The notes under the pieces were generated by a model that was given only the letters and a program-made list of their open reading frames with translations, had not been told where the DNA came from and made no database searches. A stretch of DNA of 64,000 nucleotides from a virus, in IMG/VR virus record IMGVR_UViG_3300036861_001052, positions 1 through 64,000 of that record; one strand, written 5' to 3'. Numbering within the stretch: position 1 is the first letter of the stretch; each line of letters starts with the position of its first letter. This document shows positions 1,331 through 7,569 of the stretch, one piece after another. The position numbers and the translations under genes were made by a program.

Positions 1331-1549
1331 ATGCGTCCCCTGTCCACCGCAGAGCTCTGTGCGCTCGTACCGCCAGTGAAGACGATCTCTCCTGAGCTCT
1401 CCCGCGAGCTCGAGGCACGCGGCCTCATCGAGCTCTACCGCGACAGCGACCGTCCCATGTTCCGCCTGACCGCTCTCGGCGAGCTCGCCCTCCGCGTGCA
1501 CGCTGCCTTCCTCTCTTCCGTCTACTCCGAAGGAGTACGCATCACATGA
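1331..1549 (+). CDS. small winged-helix-like protein
   Basis: LEARGLIE...FRLTALG pattern. Confidence 0.55.
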   Translation: MRPLSTAELCALVPPVKTISPELSRELEARGLIELYRDSDRPMFRLTALGELALRVHAAFLSSVYSEGVRIT

Positions 1550-1671
1550 AATCGAAAAAGAAGAAGTCCGTCCGAACCACAAAGACGAACATCCGCACCA
1601 TTCGGGTCCGCCTGATCGGCACAGCCCCCCTACTCCAGGGGAAGTACTGGGCCAACGTCGTACTCTCGTAA
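1546..1671 (+). CDS. 41-aa peptide resembling the N-terminal strand of the downstream Cas7-like protein
   Basis: AAGGAG RBS and ATGA overlap; IRTIRVRLIGTAPLLQGK versus LRVVQFKCVGTAPYVQNK in 1820-2557. Confidence 0.55.
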   Translation: MKSKKKKSVRTTKTNIRTIRVRLIGTAPLLQGKYWANVVLS

Positions 1672-1819: not shown

Positions 1820-2557
1820 ATGAAACGAGCAGCAACCCGAGCGACCGAAACGGATCTCGGCCACGCGGAGGACGGAACGCCGGTCGTCGGCCTCAATGTC
1901 CCGCCGGCAGATCTCCGAGTCGTTCAGTTCAAGTGCGTGGGCACCGCTCCCTACGTGCAAAACAAATTCAGCGGAGAGCAGAAGAGCGGCATCCGCAAAA
2001 CCCAGGAGGCTGGTAGCCAGGCCAAGAGCAAGCGCAAGCGCGATCCCAAGGACTTCAACCGCCTCTACGAGAACGCAAAACACGTGAGCGAGGAAGGCTG
2101 GATCGGCATCCCAGCGTCGTCGTTCCGGTCGGCGATGATCTCGGCCTGCCGCCTGGTCGGATTCAAAATGACAATCGCAAAAATGACCGTTTTCATCGTC
2201 GCCGACGGTCTCGACGCGGAAGAAGGCACGCCGCTCGTCCGGATCTTCGGAGAGCCGGAACAGCACGAGGCCGCTGCACGGAACGCGACCGGTGTCGTCG
2301 ACATCCGGGTCCGTCCCATGTGGCGGAGGTGGCACTGCACCCTCAACGTGCGCTTCGATGCTGGCCAATTCAGCGCGCAAGACGTGTTGAATCTACTCGA
2401 GCGCGCTGGGGCTCAGGTCGGCATCGGAGAAGGCCGGCCGGATTCGAAAAATAGTACCGGAATGGGTTGGGGCACCTTCGAAGTGGAAGGCCTCAGCGCA
2501 GGCGACCTTCCTTCCGGTGTCACTCCGCTCCGAGGCAAGAAAGGACGCGCTCAGTAA
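1820..2557 (+). CDS. stand-alone Cas7/RAMP-like RNA-binding protein (VIPR-like effector)
   Basis: AGGAG RBS; RAMP hallmarks: N-terminal strand followed by GTAP, GIPASSFRSAM (cf. IPGSSxKGxxR), C-terminal Gly-rich loop AGAQVGIGEGRPDSKNSTGMGWGTFEV; no other cas genes in the window. Confidence 0.8.
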   Translation: MKRAATRATETDLGHAEDGTPVVGLNVPPADLRVVQFKCVGTAPYVQNKFSGEQKSGIRKTQEAGSQAKSKRKRDPKDFNRLYENAKHVSEEGWIGIPASSFRSAMISACRLVGFKMTIAKMTVFIVADGLDAEEGTPLVRIFGEPEQHEAAARNATGVVDIRVRPMWRRWHCTLNVRFDAGQFSAQDVLNLLERAGAQVGIGEGRPDSKNSTGMGWGTFEVEGLSAGDLPSGVTPLRGKKGRAQ

Positions 2558-2567
2558 ACGACAACTT

Positions 2568-4111
2568 CGCTGGCCAGGCCCGGCACGGCCCGGCATGTCG
2601 AGGCTTGGCTTGGCGAGGATCGGTACGGCTGGCAGCGCTCCGCTGCGCGCGGCATGGCATGGCCCGGCAGGACACGGCATCGCAGGCTCGGCCGCGCTAG
2701 GCTGCGCGCGGTACGGCACGGACCGGATCGGCATCGCTGGCACCGCTGGGCATGGCTCGGCATGACTCGTCGGGGCTCGGCGGGCACCGCAAGGCGTGGT
2801 ACCGCTAAGGCACGGCTGGGCAACGCACCGCTGGCAGCGCGTGGCTAGGTCGCGCTGGGCGAGGCCTCACACGGCAGGCACGGCTAGCATTGGCACCGCT
2901 GCGCGAGGCCGGGCAACGCACGGCAGGCATCGCGCGGCACCGCATCGCTGGGCTCGGCACGTCGTCGCAGCGCAGGCAAGGCGCGGCACCGCACCGCTGG
3001 GCTCGGCACGTCGTCGCAGCGCAGGCAAGGCGTGGCGCCGCGTCGTACCGCTCGGCTCGGCTCGGCAGCGCAGGCATCGCAGCGCAAGGTGGCGCCAGGC
3101 ACGGCTGGACTCGGTAGGGCGCGGCGGCGCGGGCAACGCGTCGTATCGTAAGGCCGGGCTCGGCACGGCCCCGCTGGCAAGGCGTCGCGTGGCTCGGCGA
3201 GGTTTGGTCCGGCACGGCCCCGCTGGCAGCGCTGCGCTCGGCACGGCGTCGCACGGCGTGGCTCGGCTGGCGCGGCAACGCATGGCGCGGCGCTGCATGG
3301 CCGGACCCGGCGTGGATTGGCACGGCAGGCTAGGCATGGCACGGTCAGGCTCGGTGGCGCTGGGCTCGGCCGGCACGGCGTCGCTAGGCTGGGCAGCGCT
3401 GGGCGCGGCTGGCTCGGCAGCGCGTGGTGTCGCTCGGCTCGGTGGGGCACGGCACGGCTGGCAAGGCAACGCTGCGCGACGTCAGGCTTCTCGCGGTCGC
3501 GCTGGGCTGGGCATCGCACGGCGGGCACGACGTGGCTAGACCGGGCAGCGCCCGGCTTCGCATTCTCACGGCGGGCTTGGCAACGCTGGGCGAGGTCACG
3601 CGCGTCGCGGCAAGGTCTCGCTGGCAATGCAAGGTGTCGGAGGCACGGCGCGGCAACGCCGGATAGGTGACGCACCGCAGGCATCGCATGGCATGGCTCG
3701 GCCAGGTTCGGCAAGGCTGGGCATCGCAGGCAAGGTGGCGCTAGGTCAGGCCGGGAGCGGCGTCGCTGGCGACGCAGCGCATGGCGCGGCACGGAAAGGA
3801 GTCGCAACGAACGGCGGGCAGCGCAAGGTTAGGCGTGGCTTGGTCCGGACGGGGCACGGCATCGCGGGCGTGGCAGGGCAAGGACTGGAGCGGCAAGGCT
3901 CGGTCCGGCTGGCGACGCAAGGCGCGGCACGACTGCGCGGCGCTCGGCTGGGCATGGACTCGCACGGCGGGAACGGCAACGCGGCGCTCGGCAAGGCCAG
4001 GCACGGCACCGCTGGCGTGGTACGGCTGCGCATCGCACGGCAAGGTTCGGTGGGGCAGAGCACGGCTGGCATCGCTAGGCAACGCCGGGCAACGCCCGGC
4101 CGCGCCGGCAC
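2568..4111 (+). ncRNA. pentameric (G/C)G(C/T)NN array, about 31 units separated by 4-nt junctions; candidate guide-RNA array
   Basis: Manual parse gives runs of 7-12 pentamers (mostly GGCNN, also CGCNN, GGTNN, GGANN) interrupted by CGCT/CGCA/CGCG/GGCT/GGCA/GGCG/GGCC tetramers; begins 10 nt after the Cas7-like stop codon. Confidence 0.85.
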
Positions 4112-4116
4112 CCCCA

Positions 4117-4149
4117 CGGGGCGGCTGAATCCCGCGTTCAGCCGCCCCG
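4117..4149 (+). terminator. 13-bp GC-rich hairpin closing the array (terminator or RNA 3' stabiliser)
   Basis: CGGGGCGGCTGAA-tcccgcg-TTCAGCCGCCCCG followed by CTCATTTT. Confidence 0.7.
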
Positions 4150-4173
4150 CTCATTTTCGAAAGGATTTTTCAC

Positions 4174-4425
4174 ATGACCGACGAACAAGCCACGAAGTTC
4201 ATTGAAAAGAGCCGGCAGAAGATCCGAGCGCTCATCGCCGGACTCGAGATCATTCAGGACCGGACGACCGGCGCGAGCTTCTACAACTCGAGCGGTGACA
4301 GCATCACGTTCACGATCGCGACGCCGCTCACCGACTCCGAGGCACAGGCGCTCCAGGCGCTCGACTTCGAATACCGCTGGTACCCCGAGCACGGCCACGG
4401 CTGCGCCCACTTCCGCGAATGGTGA
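4174..4425 (+). CDS. hypothetical protein
   Basis: AAAGGA RBS; protein-like composition. Confidence 0.7.
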   Translation: MTDEQATKFIEKSRQKIRALIAGLEIIQDRTTGASFYNSSGDSITFTIATPLTDSEAQALQALDFEYRWYPEHGHGCAHFREW

Positions 4426-4440
4426 CCGAAAGACAAGCAC

Positions 4441-5010
4441 ATGAACGACATCGAACTCATCCGCAAAAACGATCTCCTGCAGCGAGAGCTCACAAAGCTC
4501 GTCCGCCTCGACGGCTCTCTCCGTCCCGAGGACATCCTCGACGCCGCGAAGTCCGCGGCGCATCCCCTGCACAGCTGCTTCGTGTGGGACGACACCGAGG
4601 CCGCGGCGCGCTACCGCCTGCTCCAGGCCAAGGCGCTCGTCCGCTACGTCCGGATCATCATCCCGACTCCGGAGCACCGGACCATCATCGTCCGCATGTT
4701 CGCGTCGCTTCCGAGCGATCGGTTCTCGGGGGCGGGCTACCGTACGCTGAGCTCCGTGCTCTCGGACGAAGAGAAGAAGCGCGAGCTCGTCATCTCCGCT
4801 CTCCGCGAGCTCGAGGCCTTCCAGCGCCGCTACGCGAATCTCCAGGAGCTCGCCGGCGTCATGGGGGAGATCACCCGCCTCACCCGCAATCTCGAGAAGG
4901 CCGCCCGGACGAAGAAGCCGCGGAAGCGCCGCCCGAAGCGTAAGGGCCTGAAGCCGCCGCCGAAGATCCGGAAACCGAAGGGGCCGGGGCGCGGGGCGCC
5001 CAAGCATTGA
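4441..5010 (+). CDS. conserved phage protein (PLHxxFxWDD...AAxxYRLxQA) with Lys/Arg-rich tail; candidate accessory of the Cas7-like system
   Basis: LRPEDILDAAKSAAHPLHSCFVWDDTEAAARYRLLQAK; basic C-terminus. Confidence 0.7.
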   Translation: MNDIELIRKNDLLQRELTKLVRLDGSLRPEDILDAAKSAAHPLHSCFVWDDTEAAARYRLLQAKALVRYVRIIIPTPEHRTIIVRMFASLPSDRFSGAGYRTLSSVLSDEEKKRELVISALRELEAFQRRYANLQELAGVMGEITRLTRNLEKAARTKKPRKRRPKRKGLKPPPKIRKPKGPGRGAPKH

Positions 5011-6592: not shown

Positions 6593-6805
6593 ATGGCCGA
6601 AACCATTTGGGACAAAGACGCGCGCGCCGCAGCGGCCGCCATTCTCACGAACCAGCGTAGCCCCAAGAACGAAGTGCCCGATGCCAAAAGCGTCGCGAGC
6701 TACGCAGCCGTCATCGCCGACGCCCTCGGTGCCGAGCGGCTCCGTCGCTACGAGGAGCGCATCGCCGCACTCGACAAGAAGCCCTCCGGAAAGCCCGGCC
6801 CATGA
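6593..6805 (+). CDS. hypothetical protein
   Basis: AAGGAG RBS; coupled to the next gene. Confidence 0.65.
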   Translation: MAETIWDKDARAAAAAILTNQRSPKNEVPDAKSVASYAAVIADALGAERLRRYEERIAALDKKPSGKPGP

Positions 6806-7569
6806 GAACCATCGCCTACCTCGGCGACTACACGGCGCTCACGACGACGAAGTACGGGGACAAGATCTACGTCGACACGCGCGACACGTCGCTTGCGCCG
6901 CATCTCCTCGTCGAGGGCGACTGGGAGCCATGGGTCACCAATGCCATGCGCTCCGTGCTCTCGAGGATCGGGCCTGGCTTTACGTTCATCGACGTCGGCG
7001 CGAACTTCGGCTGGTACACGCTCCTAGCGCACCGGATGGACGCGCACTCCGTCGTCGCCATCGAGCCCAACCCCCGCCTCTTCGAGCTTCTTCGAAAGAC
7101 CGTCGCCGTGAACGGACGCATCGGAAAGACTGGTCTTATGGAGTTGGCAGCGACAGCCACTGTCCAACGGCTCTTTCTCGAGTTTACGTGGGACGAGCTC
7201 GGCGGCGGGCGGCTCGTGGAAGATGCCACGCGGAGCCACTCGCGAGTGGTCCCCGTCAGCGGAGTTCCGCTCGACACCGTCATCCCCTACGCCTCCACCC
7301 TTCCGCCCCGCGTCGTCATCAAAATCGACGTCGAGGGTGGCGAGGTCGACGTGCTCAGGGGAGCTAGCAAGATCCTAGATCTCGGCCCCATTCTTTTCGT
7401 GGAGCACCACCAGGAAAACACCGCCGCGCTCTGGGAGCTTCTCGGTTCGCGGTACACGATTCATCTCGCCAAGCACGACGGGCACCGGGGGGCCGCGCTC
7501 TCGCTCTCCGAGGCCCTGGACATCCCGAACGCCGAGACCCTCATCTGCCTCCCCGTCACCCTCCCATGA
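6802..7569 (+). CDS. FkbM-family SAM-dependent methyltransferase
   Basis: FIDVGANFGWYT, AIEPNP, IKIDVEGGE motifs. Confidence 0.9.
   Translation: MRTIAYLGDYTALTTTKYGDKIYVDTRDTSLAPHLLVEGDWEPWVTNAMRSVLSRIGPGFTFIDVGANFGWYTLLAHRMDAHSVVAIEPNPRLFELLRKTVAVNGRIGKTGLMELAATATVQRLFLEFTWDELGGGRLVEDATRSHSRVVPVSGVPLDTVIPYASTLPPRVVIKIDVEGGEVDVLRGASKILDLGPILFVEHHQENTAALWELLGSRYTIHLAKHDGHRGAALSLSEALDIPNAETLICLPVTLP

What the first reader, a model, noticed from the sequence alone, without database searches (positions are those of the whole stretch)
2568..4111. Two-level grammar of the array: about 31 guide-sized units delimited by 4-nt junctions
Seen: the 5-nt phase slips by one base at regular intervals because a tetramer (CGCT, CGCA, CGCG, GGCT, GGCA, GGCG, GGCC) replaces a pentamer. 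This yields units of 7-12 pentamers (commonly 8-9, about 44-49 nt). Unit 1 (2572-2626) is ggcCA ggcCC ggcAC ggcCC ggcAT gtcGA ggcTT ggcTT ggcGA ggaTC ggtAC, giving CA-CC-AC-CC-AT-GA-TT-TT-GA-TC-AC. Units almost always open with GGC, and the last NN is often AC/AT/TC/CC. A few 6-mers and an irregular stretch near 3625-3680 break the pattern. CGC is frequent at the constant position, so the consensus here is SGY rather than strict GGY. Inference: tetramers mark processing sites or filament boundaries, and each unit carries 14-24 informative bases, enough to specify a unique target.
Basis: partly seen in the sequence, partly recalled or inferred. Interest (0 to 1): 0.85.

Follow-up and report, generated by a model that had tools for sequence, protein, structure and literature searches.

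The report
Staggered VIPR guide-RNA array in phage
The 1.5-kb five-base repeat is the guide-RNA array of a phage VIPR system, a CRISPR-related RNA-guided DNA silencer described in 2026 preprints, and its four-base steps are the junctions between about 30 guide-sized units, so it is a new example of a known kind.

Summary
Window 2568-4111 parses into 278 pentamers, 34 tetramers and 3 hexamers. Positions 1-3 (S-G-Y) are constrained and positions 4-5 are near-random. Without any parsing, autocorrelation is highest at lag 49, which equals 9 pentamers plus 1 tetramer. Tetramers are far more evenly spaced than chance: 30 of 33 intervals hold 7-12 elements, against at most 18 in 20,000 shuffles.

The gene upstream (1820-2557) has a Cas7/RAMP-like fold and is homologous to the phiSUSP1 Vipr protein. 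The same pentamer-plus-tetramer grammar lies beside its homologues in 62 of 81 loci from many phyla.

This matches the 'staggered vrRNA arrays' with 1-nt overlaps in bioRxiv 10.64898/2026.04.26.720920 (fig. S18 legend). That paper's text names sRNA-seq confirmation only for two other architectures.

This scan has already reported such arrays in at least 11 other genomes.

Features particular to this array:
- C replaces the first G in 22% of heads.
- The junction tetramers vary rather than being GGCA.

RNA ends could not be tested. No convincing target was found in 8 collection scans.

Verdict: real, ordinary for its kind, and a new member of a known kind.

The parts
1820..2557 (+). vipr gene: a lone minimal RAMP/Cas7-like protein of 245 aa counted from the ATG at 1820. 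The longest ORF begins at a GTG at 1700.
   Evidence: The AF2 model has pLDDT 83.2. Foldseek against PDB gives 42 matches at E<=1e-3, led by chains of type III-A Csm complexes, with type III-B, III-D, type VII and Cas7-11 complexes further down the list; the best is 9g9k_I at E 3.9e-5. hhalign of the family profile A1 against the phiSUSP1 protein at KT454805.2 28474-29058(-) gives probability 92.9% and E 3.8e-7 over 54 C-terminal columns that include the G-rich loop. It hits phrog_4652 at 3.8e-18 and has no Pfam family.
2568..4111 (+). Staggered vrRNA array: 278 S-G-Y-N-N pentamers broken by 34 four-base steps and 3 six-base elements into 30 guide-sized units plus 3 short ones. There are no tails or ribozymes between units.
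   Evidence: No Rfam family reaches gathering score anywhere in the window. It is the only such array in the 138-kb genome. ORFs overlapping it have no Pfam family. A 300-nt piece folds no better than shuffles, z = 0.41.
2926..3072 (+). Three consecutive 49-nt units. The first two are near-duplicates that differ in 2 of 9 NN dinucleotides, which shows duplication in unit register.
   Evidence: TRF finds period 49, 2.4 copies and 92% matches at 2923-3041. The units are listed. In two soil runs a 38-nt contig carries about twice the depth of the flanks (53.1 vs 26, and 35 vs 18.9), as expected for two copies.
3623..3679 (+). Irregular stretch: three short units of 19 nt each, made of 3 pentamers plus a tetramer.
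4117..4158 (+). Intrinsic-terminator-like hairpin (14 pairs, 10 of them G-C) followed by a T run, directly after the last repeat.
   Evidence: The RNA fold gives -37.4 kcal/mol, z = -3.6.
4174..4425 (+). 83-aa ORF of unknown role between the array and the accessory gene.
   Evidence: No Pfam or PHROG family. tblastn finds no homologue in any of the 81 related loci. Its membership in the system is doubtful.
4441..5010 (+). Conserved accessory gene of this Vipr clade (vap-like), 189 aa.
   Evidence: Homologues occur in 70 of 81 related loci, always on the vipr strand and mostly 0-500 bp downstream of it. It hits phrog_15946 at 1.1e-22. It is not homologous to the phiSUSP1 gene next to vipr (hhalign probability 0.2%). 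The AF2 model has pLDDT 90. Foldseek against PDB finds nothing at E<=1e-3. The best VIA match for residues 4-117 is 2od5_A, 'putative nucleic acid binding protein', Z 6.5, rmsd 3.4, 81 aligned; this is a middling score.

Best explanation
The tract is the guide-RNA (vrRNA) array of a phage VIPR system, of the published 'staggered' architecture.

Shown here:
- A Vipr-type RAMP gene sits directly upstream on the same strand, and a clade-specific accessory gene sits downstream.
- The tract is made of S-G-Y heads alternating with near-random NN dinucleotides.
- A one-base phase slip recurs every 7-12 repeats.
- The same grammar accompanies Vipr homologues across many phyla.

Taken from the preprints on the type II system of phage SUSP1, and inferred for this locus:
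- One Vipr protomer binds each pentamer.
- Two neighbouring protomers clamp each GGY and expose the NN pair.
- The NN string pairs with double-stranded target DNA, skipping one base per repeat, and silences it.

My own inference:
- vipr and the array are transcribed together, rightwards, to the terminator at 4117-4158.
- At a four-base step only one base separates Y from the next GG, so the five-base protein register cannot continue. The filament ends there and a new one starts on the following GG.
- This cuts the transcript, physically or at least functionally, into about 30 guides of 14-24 informative bases without any tail, handle or ribozyme.
For: Grammar of the array:
- Lag-49 autocorrelation (0.518) exceeds lag 5 (0.504) and lag 50 (0.316).
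- 30 of 33 inter-tetramer intervals lie in 7-12, against at most 18 in 20,000 shuffles.
- 34 of 34 elements after a tetramer start with GG, although 61 of 278 heads overall are CGC.
- C-heads are 0 of 30 at the first repeat of a unit.

Constraint pattern:
- Entropy is 0.39-0.90 bits at the head positions and 1.87-1.94 bits at NN.
- NN identity between adjacent units is 0.337 against about 0.27 background.

Protein:
- Foldseek top matches are chains of type III Csm/Cmr, type VII and Cas7-11 complexes, 42 of them at E<=1e-3.
- hhalign to the phiSUSP1 Vipr candidate gives 92.9%. I read the GGT-NN arrays with tails flanking that gene.

Comparative evidence:
- 25 of 28 IMG/VR loci have period-5 tracts beside the homologue.
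- 62 of 81 loci have a same-strand array by a stricter parser.
- In 83 arrays, 305 of 500 intervals lie in 7-12, against a shuffle mean of 109.8 and maximum of 143. The mode is 9.
- The tetramer is GGCA in 248 of 314 regular units.
- The accessory gene is present in 70 of 81 loci.

Literature:
- Staggered arrays with 1-nt overlaps, vrRNAs of 9-16 repeats, and variant repeats such as YNNNG.
- One protomer per repeat, with GGY held by two protomers.

Other:
- A terminator directly follows the array.
- The array has no excess RNA structure.
Against: - Nothing here shows transcription, RNA ends or Vipr binding.
- By the preprint's own text, the staggered architecture was not among those confirmed by sRNA-seq.
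- No natural target was established. The one exact 22-base hit lies in a cellular GH2 beta-galactosidase gene, with the skipped base at codon position 1 rather than at the wobble position. No other unit matches that contig, so I read the hit as chance.
- Local tests show no advantage of the 1-nt skip rule over 0, 2 or 3, though the local databases are tiny.
- 22% of heads have C in place of the first G, a base that SUSP1 Vipr contacts specifically. About 11% of heads are otherwise degenerate. Part of the array could therefore be decaying.
- The homology to SUSP1 Vipr is detected only over the C-terminal 54 columns, and the TM-scores to Cas7-type chains are modest, 0.3-0.43.
Confidence: 0.75

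Rival explanations
1. The array is a VIPR RNA, but it is not cut into separate guides. It would be one long Vipr-coated transcript, for example a multi-footprint silencer, a protein store, or a decoy or sponge for rival Vipr proteins. The four-base steps would only kink or interrupt the coat.
For: There is no tail, handle or ribozyme between units. The staggered form has no published RNA-end data. Solo vrRNAs that redirect a rival's Vipr are described for satellites of SUSP1. The structural preprint says some natural vrRNAs reach up to 30 repeats.
Against: The step spacing is tightly held at 7-12 repeats here and in 305 of 500 intervals of relatives. That is the published length range of single vrRNAs, 9-16 repeats. 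The legend of fig. S18 speaks of 'individual processed vrRNAs'.
Confidence: 0.17
2. The tract acts as DNA: a phased array of protein-binding sites, for instance for the downstream 189-aa protein or for packaging, and not as RNA.
For: The downstream protein has a weak PHROG hit to a terminase small subunit (E 5.5e-4), a basic tail, and a middling structural match to a putative nucleic-acid-binding protein. In relatives the module sits near packaging or replication genes.
Against: Among relatives, 7 minus-strand calls were made across. Five of them overlap a stronger plus-strand call, and 2 (L016 4926-5460, L027 2548-2657) do not. All other calls are on the vipr strand. The array is followed by a terminator. 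A homologous protein family is shown in the preprints to bind such repeats as RNA. A 5-bp site spacing with a 49-bp super-period fits no helical-repeat logic that I could construct.
Confidence: 0.04
3. It is a decaying higher-order satellite: a 49-nt unit built of pentamers, amplified and drifting, with no present function.
For: There is a clear 49-nt higher-order period and a recent in-register duplication. About a third of heads depart from GGY: 65 with C at position 1 and 32 otherwise degenerate, of 278.
Against: Decay would erode all positions alike. Here the heads keep 0.39-0.90 bits of entropy while NN is at 1.87-1.94 bits. The same grammar is kept next to homologous genes in 62 of 81 loci, in contigs whose G+C ranged from 0.42 to 0.68 among the 28 IMG/VR loci. 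The DNA is identical in several soil runs.
Confidence: 0.03

Closest known systems
VIPR systems with 'staggered' vrRNA arrays (bioRxiv 10.64898/2026.04.26.720920, Results 'Diverse VIPR systems' and legend of fig. S18)
   Same: A lone Vipr RAMP gene plus an accessory gene. Uninterrupted GGY/NN pentamer tracts in which successive guide-length segments are offset by one base (a '1 nt overlap', which equals a four-base step). No tail between the units.
   Different: I could not see the figure, the type assignment or the supplementary data. In this array the first G is C in 22% of heads, against a median of 1.2% and a maximum of 9.7% in 49 relatives. The junction tetramer is varied (GGCA only 3 of 34), whereas it is GGCA in 248 of 314 units of relatives. 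At about 33 units, this array is the longest among the 63 loci I parsed, this window included.
Type II VIPR of Escherichia phage phiSUSP1 (KT454805.2; same preprint and 10.64898/2026.04.26.720927)
   Same: A homologous Vipr protein. A pentamer code with constant GGY and variable NN. Arrays on the gene's strand, flanking the two-gene operon.
   Different: Each SUSP1 vrRNA ends in a roughly 40-nt conserved tail, and a further stretch of non-repeat sequence separates it from the next vrRNA. Here there is neither. The SUSP1 heads I read are mostly GGT; here they are GGC or CGC. The accessory genes are unrelated. tblastn with the window's protein does not reach SUSP1 at E<=1e-3.
Class 1 CRISPR backbones (Cas7-family subunits on crRNA)
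   Same: A RAMP fold. One subunit per fixed RNA increment, with periodically displaced bases, as the preprints state.
   Different: The increment is 5 nt with 3 bases sequestered, rather than 6 nt with 1 flipped. There is no repeat-spacer array, and guide boundaries are not set by a repeat handle. I did not search the window for other cas genes.
TRAP-type ring proteins that bind triplets spaced by 2-3 nt (recalled; no call)
   Same: An RNA made of a constant triplet plus a two-base spacer, in runs of about 10-11.
   Different: This was only an early analogy of mine. The neighbouring protein is a RAMP, not a TRAP-like ring, and the published Vipr assembly is a helical filament.

Membership tests
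VIPR system | Vipr protein: a small stand-alone RAMP with RRM core, G-rich loop and thumb | tested here: met
   Foldseek against PDB returns chains of type III, type VII and Cas7-11 effector complexes: 42 matches at E<=1e-3, best 3.9e-5. hhalign to the phiSUSP1 Vipr candidate gives 92.9% and E 3.8e-7 over 54 columns that include the conserved G-rich loop. That loop region is invariant in 18 homologues. I did not map the thumb residue by residue.
VIPR system | vrRNA: tandem pentamers with a constant GGY (or a related consensus) alternating with hypervariable NN, next to vipr | tested here: met
   The entropy profile over 278 pentamers. The array starts 11 nt after the vipr stop codon, on the same strand. 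The head is S-G-Y rather than strict GGY. The preprint lists variant consensuses such as YNNNG.
VIPR system | An accessory (vap) gene in the operon | tested here: met
   A homologue of 4441-5010 accompanies vipr in 70 of 81 loci. Which of vap1-6 it is cannot be said. It is unrelated to the SUSP1 neighbour. A DNA-binding role is unproven.
VIPR system | vrRNAs are expressed and co-purify with Vipr | not testable with these tools
   This needs RNA sequencing or biochemistry.
VIPR system | NN strings match natural targets under the 1-nt skip rule | tested here: inconclusive
   Seven different patterns were scanned exact-match only in 8 collection scans. Local mismatch-tolerant tests were also run. 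No convincing target emerged. Exact matching and small local databases make this a weak test.
VIPR, staggered-array architecture | Successive vrRNAs abut with a 1-nt overlap, with no tail or ribozyme between them | tested here: met
   34 four-base steps at regular spacing. Every element of the 1544-nt tract is 4-6 nt long. No Rfam family, hammerhead included, reaches gathering score.
VIPR type II (SUSP1-like) | Each vrRNA ends in a conserved structured 3' tail of about 40 nt | tested here: not met
   There is no non-repeat insert between units. The only hairpin follows the last unit. The locus is therefore not filed as type II.

The most novel reading that the evidence does not exclude
A one-base phase slip may be the whole punctuation mark. 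In this reading guide boundaries are written purely as a break in the five-base register. The Vipr filament reads that break by failing to extend and by re-nucleating on the next GG. No handle, tail, ribozyme or dedicated nuclease would be needed. Two features particular to this array fit the idea. The sequence of the tetramer is free (nine kinds), yet its length and the following GG are kept in 34 of 34 cases. The relaxed first base (C in 22% of heads) is never tolerated at the first repeat of a unit (0 of 30). That would be a mode of guide demarcation unlike that of CRISPR or of tailed VIPR arrays, and the published work does not report an experimental test of it.
Probability: 0.35. Interest if true: 0.55.

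Novelty: new member of a known kind. Interest (0 to 1): 0.3.

Why it matters
The kind is already described, so the main value is confirmation and detail.

- It is conserved beside Vipr homologues in 62 of 81 loci from very different bacteria and phages.
- This supports the idea that the one-base overlap of 'staggered' arrays is a functional delimiter and not an assembly or alignment curiosity.
- This array is a good test case for that question, because its tetramer sequence is free while its length and the following GG are fixed.
- A 30-guide array in a 138-kb soil phage would also imply a large repertoire of silenced rivals or host genes. Those targets remain unknown.

Tried and rejected
Protein coding. 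A 5-nt period with a slip every 49 nt cannot keep a reading frame. The three long ORFs across the array have no Pfam family above noise.

TRAP-like ring or DNA-curvature ideas. I held these before the literature search and dropped them once the neighbour proved to be a RAMP and the VIPR papers were found.

Self-targeting. The best matches of 30 units in the phage's own 138-kb genome are the same under skip rules 0-3.

Cross-targeting within fetched DNA. 307 units were searched against 0.8 Mb. There was no excess for skip 1.

Collection scans for targets (exact match only).
- Six single-unit patterns in viral contigs gave 0 hits each.
- One degenerate pattern covering the duplicated units at 2926 and 2975 gave 8 hits, 6 of them distinct.
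- All 8 are codon-aligned in the frame opposite to the guide and read one short peptide motif. They lie in unrelated genes: two 570-aa copies, a 674-aa protein and small ORFs. I read this as a common peptide, not a target family.
- One 22-base pattern in metagenome contigs gave 1 exact hit. It lies inside a GH2 beta-galactosidase gene, with the skip at codon position 1. I read this as chance.

Composition test.
- NN dinucleotides of relatives correlate best with codon positions 1-2 in sense (r 0.51).
- Those of the window correlate best with positions 1-2 in antisense (rho 0.47).
- With 16 categories and six comparisons, neither result is significant.

Public runs.
- Five soil DNA runs hold the stretch or part of it, and no RNA holder is listed.
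- Laying four of them showed the array letter for letter in two runs that may be the source, and in short contigs of a third.
- Contigs break at the 49-nt duplicate. Nothing could be learned about RNA ends.

Accessory protein. There was no PDB sequence match and no Foldseek match at E<=1e-3. Only a middling VIA match was found.

Which of the seven VIPR types this is. The figures and supplementary data that define the types (Fig. 5A, figs S16-S18, data S4) were not available to me. The text does not say which type carries staggered arrays.
Full report
WHAT IS THERE

Window 2568-4111 (+) is a 1544-nt, 74% G+C, G-rich tract: G 646, C 503, A 212, T 183. It lies between a 245-aa gene that ends at 2557 and a strong hairpin with a T run at 4117-4158.

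- Identity is 0.504 at lag 5. The lag-5k series then fades while the lag-(5k-1) series grows.
- The maximum of the whole profile is 0.518 at lag 49, against 0.316 at lag 50 and 0.278 at lag 48.
- The 49-nt period persists at 98 (0.469) and 147 (0.444), and at about 0.38-0.41 out to lag 784.

A dynamic-programming parse gives 278 pentamers, 34 tetramers and 3 hexamers.

THE TWO LEVELS ARE REAL

- Pentamer positions 1-3 have 0.90, 0.39 and 0.77 bits of entropy. Positions 4-5 have 1.87 and 1.94 bits.
- With hexamers counted as ordinary elements, the 33 intervals between tetramers hold 8.48 +/- 2.11 elements, and 30 of 33 lie in 7-12.
- 20,000 shuffles of the element order gave a mean sd of 8.16 (never below 3.93) and at most 18 intervals in 7-12.
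- Row lengths are 49 nt (9 rows), 44 (7), 59 (4), 54 (3), 39 (3) and 64 (1). Three rows ending in a hexamer make 50 nt each with the short row that follows. Three short 19-nt units lie at 3623-3679.
- The element after a tetramer starts with GG in 34 of 34 cases, although 61 of 278 heads overall are CGC.
- C-heads are absent from the first repeat of a unit (0 of 30) and are commonest at the tetramer itself (15 of 30).
- The NN positions of neighbouring units are almost unrelated: per-base identity is 0.337 at a lag of ten elements against about 0.27 elsewhere. Most of that excess comes from one recent in-register duplication at 2926-3072.

A uniformly decaying satellite would not keep its heads while randomising exactly two of every five positions.

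WHAT IT BELONGS TO

The upstream protein has no Pfam family and one PHROG of unknown function.
- A model built on 18 homologues has pLDDT 83.2.
- In the PDB it finds chains of type III-A Csm, III-B Cmr, III-D, type VII and Cas7-11 effector complexes: 42 matches at E<=1e-3, best 3.9e-5, with modest TM-scores of 0.3-0.43.
- That these chains are the Cas7-family subunits is my reading. The preprints name 6IFK and 6IFN as Csm3/Cas7 references.

A full-text search for pentanucleotide repeats in phages led to bioRxiv 10.64898/2026.04.26.720920. I read its outline, all of Results, the Discussion, two Methods sections and the legends of figs S9-S22 as passages. It describes VIPR:
- a lone Vipr RAMP and an accessory vap gene;
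- vrRNAs of 9-16 YNNGG repeats;
- NN dinucleotides that read double-stranded DNA while skipping one base per repeat.

It lists several array architectures, among them 'staggered arrays with overlapping vrRNAs'. The legend of fig. [quoted passage not shown] A one-base overlap between two pentamer tracts is exactly a tetramer step. The text adds that only 'the latter two' architectures, ribozyme-interspersed and single-vrRNA, were confirmed by sRNA-seq.

To test membership I fetched phage phiSUSP1.
- I read the GGT-NN tracts with conserved tails on both sides of its two-gene operon.
- I compared its 194-aa protein with the profile of the window's family. hhalign gives probability 92.9% and E 3.8e-7 over 54 C-terminal columns, including the G-rich loop.
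- The neighbouring SUSP1 gene is unrelated to the window's downstream gene.
- The window has no tails between units, and no Rfam ribozyme anywhere in it.

It is therefore a VIPR system, not of the SUSP1 type, and of the staggered architecture.

THE GRAMMAR IS CONSERVED

- 28 IMG/VR loci and 53 loci from named genomes encode homologues at 41-63% identity. The named genomes include Bradyrhizobium, Roseococcus, Planctomycetota, Clostridia, Bacteroidales and candidate-phyla bacteria.
- In the phage collection, the homologues are in Cyanophage Cy-LDV1, 27 Mycobacterium phage records and 5 Gordonia phage records.
- 25 of the 28 IMG/VR loci show period-5 tracts beside the gene, in contigs of 0.42-0.68 G+C.
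- By a stricter parser, 62 of 81 loci have an array on the gene's strand. The 19 without one include short contigs.
- Across 83 distinct arrays, 305 of 500 inter-tetramer intervals lie in 7-12 (mode 9). Shuffles give a mean of 109.8 and a maximum of 143.
- The tetramer is GGCA in 248 of 314 regular units, and the next head is GGC, GGT or GGA in 299 of 314.
- NN composition shows little positional bias inside units, at most 0.24 bits.
- A homologue of the window's 4441-5010 follows vipr in 70 of 81 loci.
- The window's own 138-kb genome has one vipr and one array.

WHAT IS PARTICULAR HERE

- The first head base is C in 22% of pentamers, against a median of 1.2% and a maximum of 9.7% in 49 relatives.
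- The junction tetramer comes in nine kinds, with GGCA only 3 of 34.
- The array lies between vipr and the accessory gene, together with an 83-aa ORF that has no homologue in the 81 loci.
- It is the longest array among the 63 loci I parsed, this window included: 312 repeats against 202 in the next.

HOW IT MOST LIKELY WORKS

The companion structural preprint is 10.64898/2026.04.26.720927. I read its abstract, section 5 and passages. It reports:
- one protomer per repeat;
- each GGY clamped jointly by two adjacent protomers;
- the 3' end capped by the tail pseudoknot;

From this I infer that a four-base step, with only one base between Y and the next GG, cannot be spanned in register. A filament would end there and the next would begin on the following GG. 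Whether the RNA is also cleaved there is unknown.

Two observations fit a single-stranded, co-transcribed, protein-coated RNA. The tract shows no more predicted structure than shuffles (z = 0.41). It ends at a terminator.

TARGETS

I could not establish any.
- Self-matches and matches within 0.8 Mb of fetched DNA show no preference for the 1-nt skip rule.
- Six exact-match gapped patterns found nothing in the viral collection.
- A degenerate pattern for the duplicated units found 8 places. All are codon-aligned on the opposite strand and spell one short peptide, but they lie in unrelated genes.
- The two NN differences between those duplicate units would be conservative amino-acid changes in that antisense reading. 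This is an anecdote, not a test.
- One 22-base pattern has a single exact hit in the metagenome collection, inside a cellular GH2 beta-galactosidase gene and out of the wobble register. I take it as chance.
- A composition test of NN against codon dinucleotides is weak.

VERDICT

Four 2026 preprints cover VIPR. Besides the two above:
- 10.64898/2026.10.15.759431, read as passages only, does not mention staggered arrays.
- 10.64898/2026.10.21.760802, read as passages only, reports 99 period-5 clusters.

This scan has already filed the same architecture in at least 11 other genomes. This is therefore a new member of a known kind.

Noticed in passing
window 1546-1671 (+): A 41-aa ORF just upstream of vipr ends in a segment that resembles the conserved N-terminal strand of Vipr proteins (the '...I.GTAPL...' motif of alignment A1). 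It may be a remnant or a split-off piece of a second vipr. tblastn with Vipr does not detect it.
   Followed up: partly
window 2568-4111: C at head position 1 is preceded by G or T at the previous N5 more often than G-heads are. G-heads are preceded by C in 88 of 186 cases. The cause, whether mutational or structural, is unexplained.
   Followed up: partly
window 6802-7569 (+): An FkbM-family methyltransferase gene (Pfam PF05050, E 1.4e-16) lies a few genes downstream of the VIPR module.
   Followed up: no
L007 5630-5909 and 7132-7303; L038 (three arrays); L039, L040, L063: Many relatives carry two or three separate staggered arrays: upstream of vipr, between vipr and the accessory gene, and downstream. 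The window has a single large one.
   Followed up: partly
L016 and L069: These two relatives have an unusually high tetramer-to-pentamer ratio: 30 to 97 in L016, and 21 to 83 and 18 to 66 in L069. That suggests either a different unit length or a repeat variant that my parser handles poorly.
   Followed up: no
Phage records (27 Mycobacterium and 5 Gordonia phage records, Cyanophage Cy-LDV1): Cultured phages with laboratory hosts encode homologues of this Vipr clade, annotated as hypothetical proteins. They would be convenient systems for testing staggered arrays. I did not inspect their flanks for arrays.
   Followed up: no
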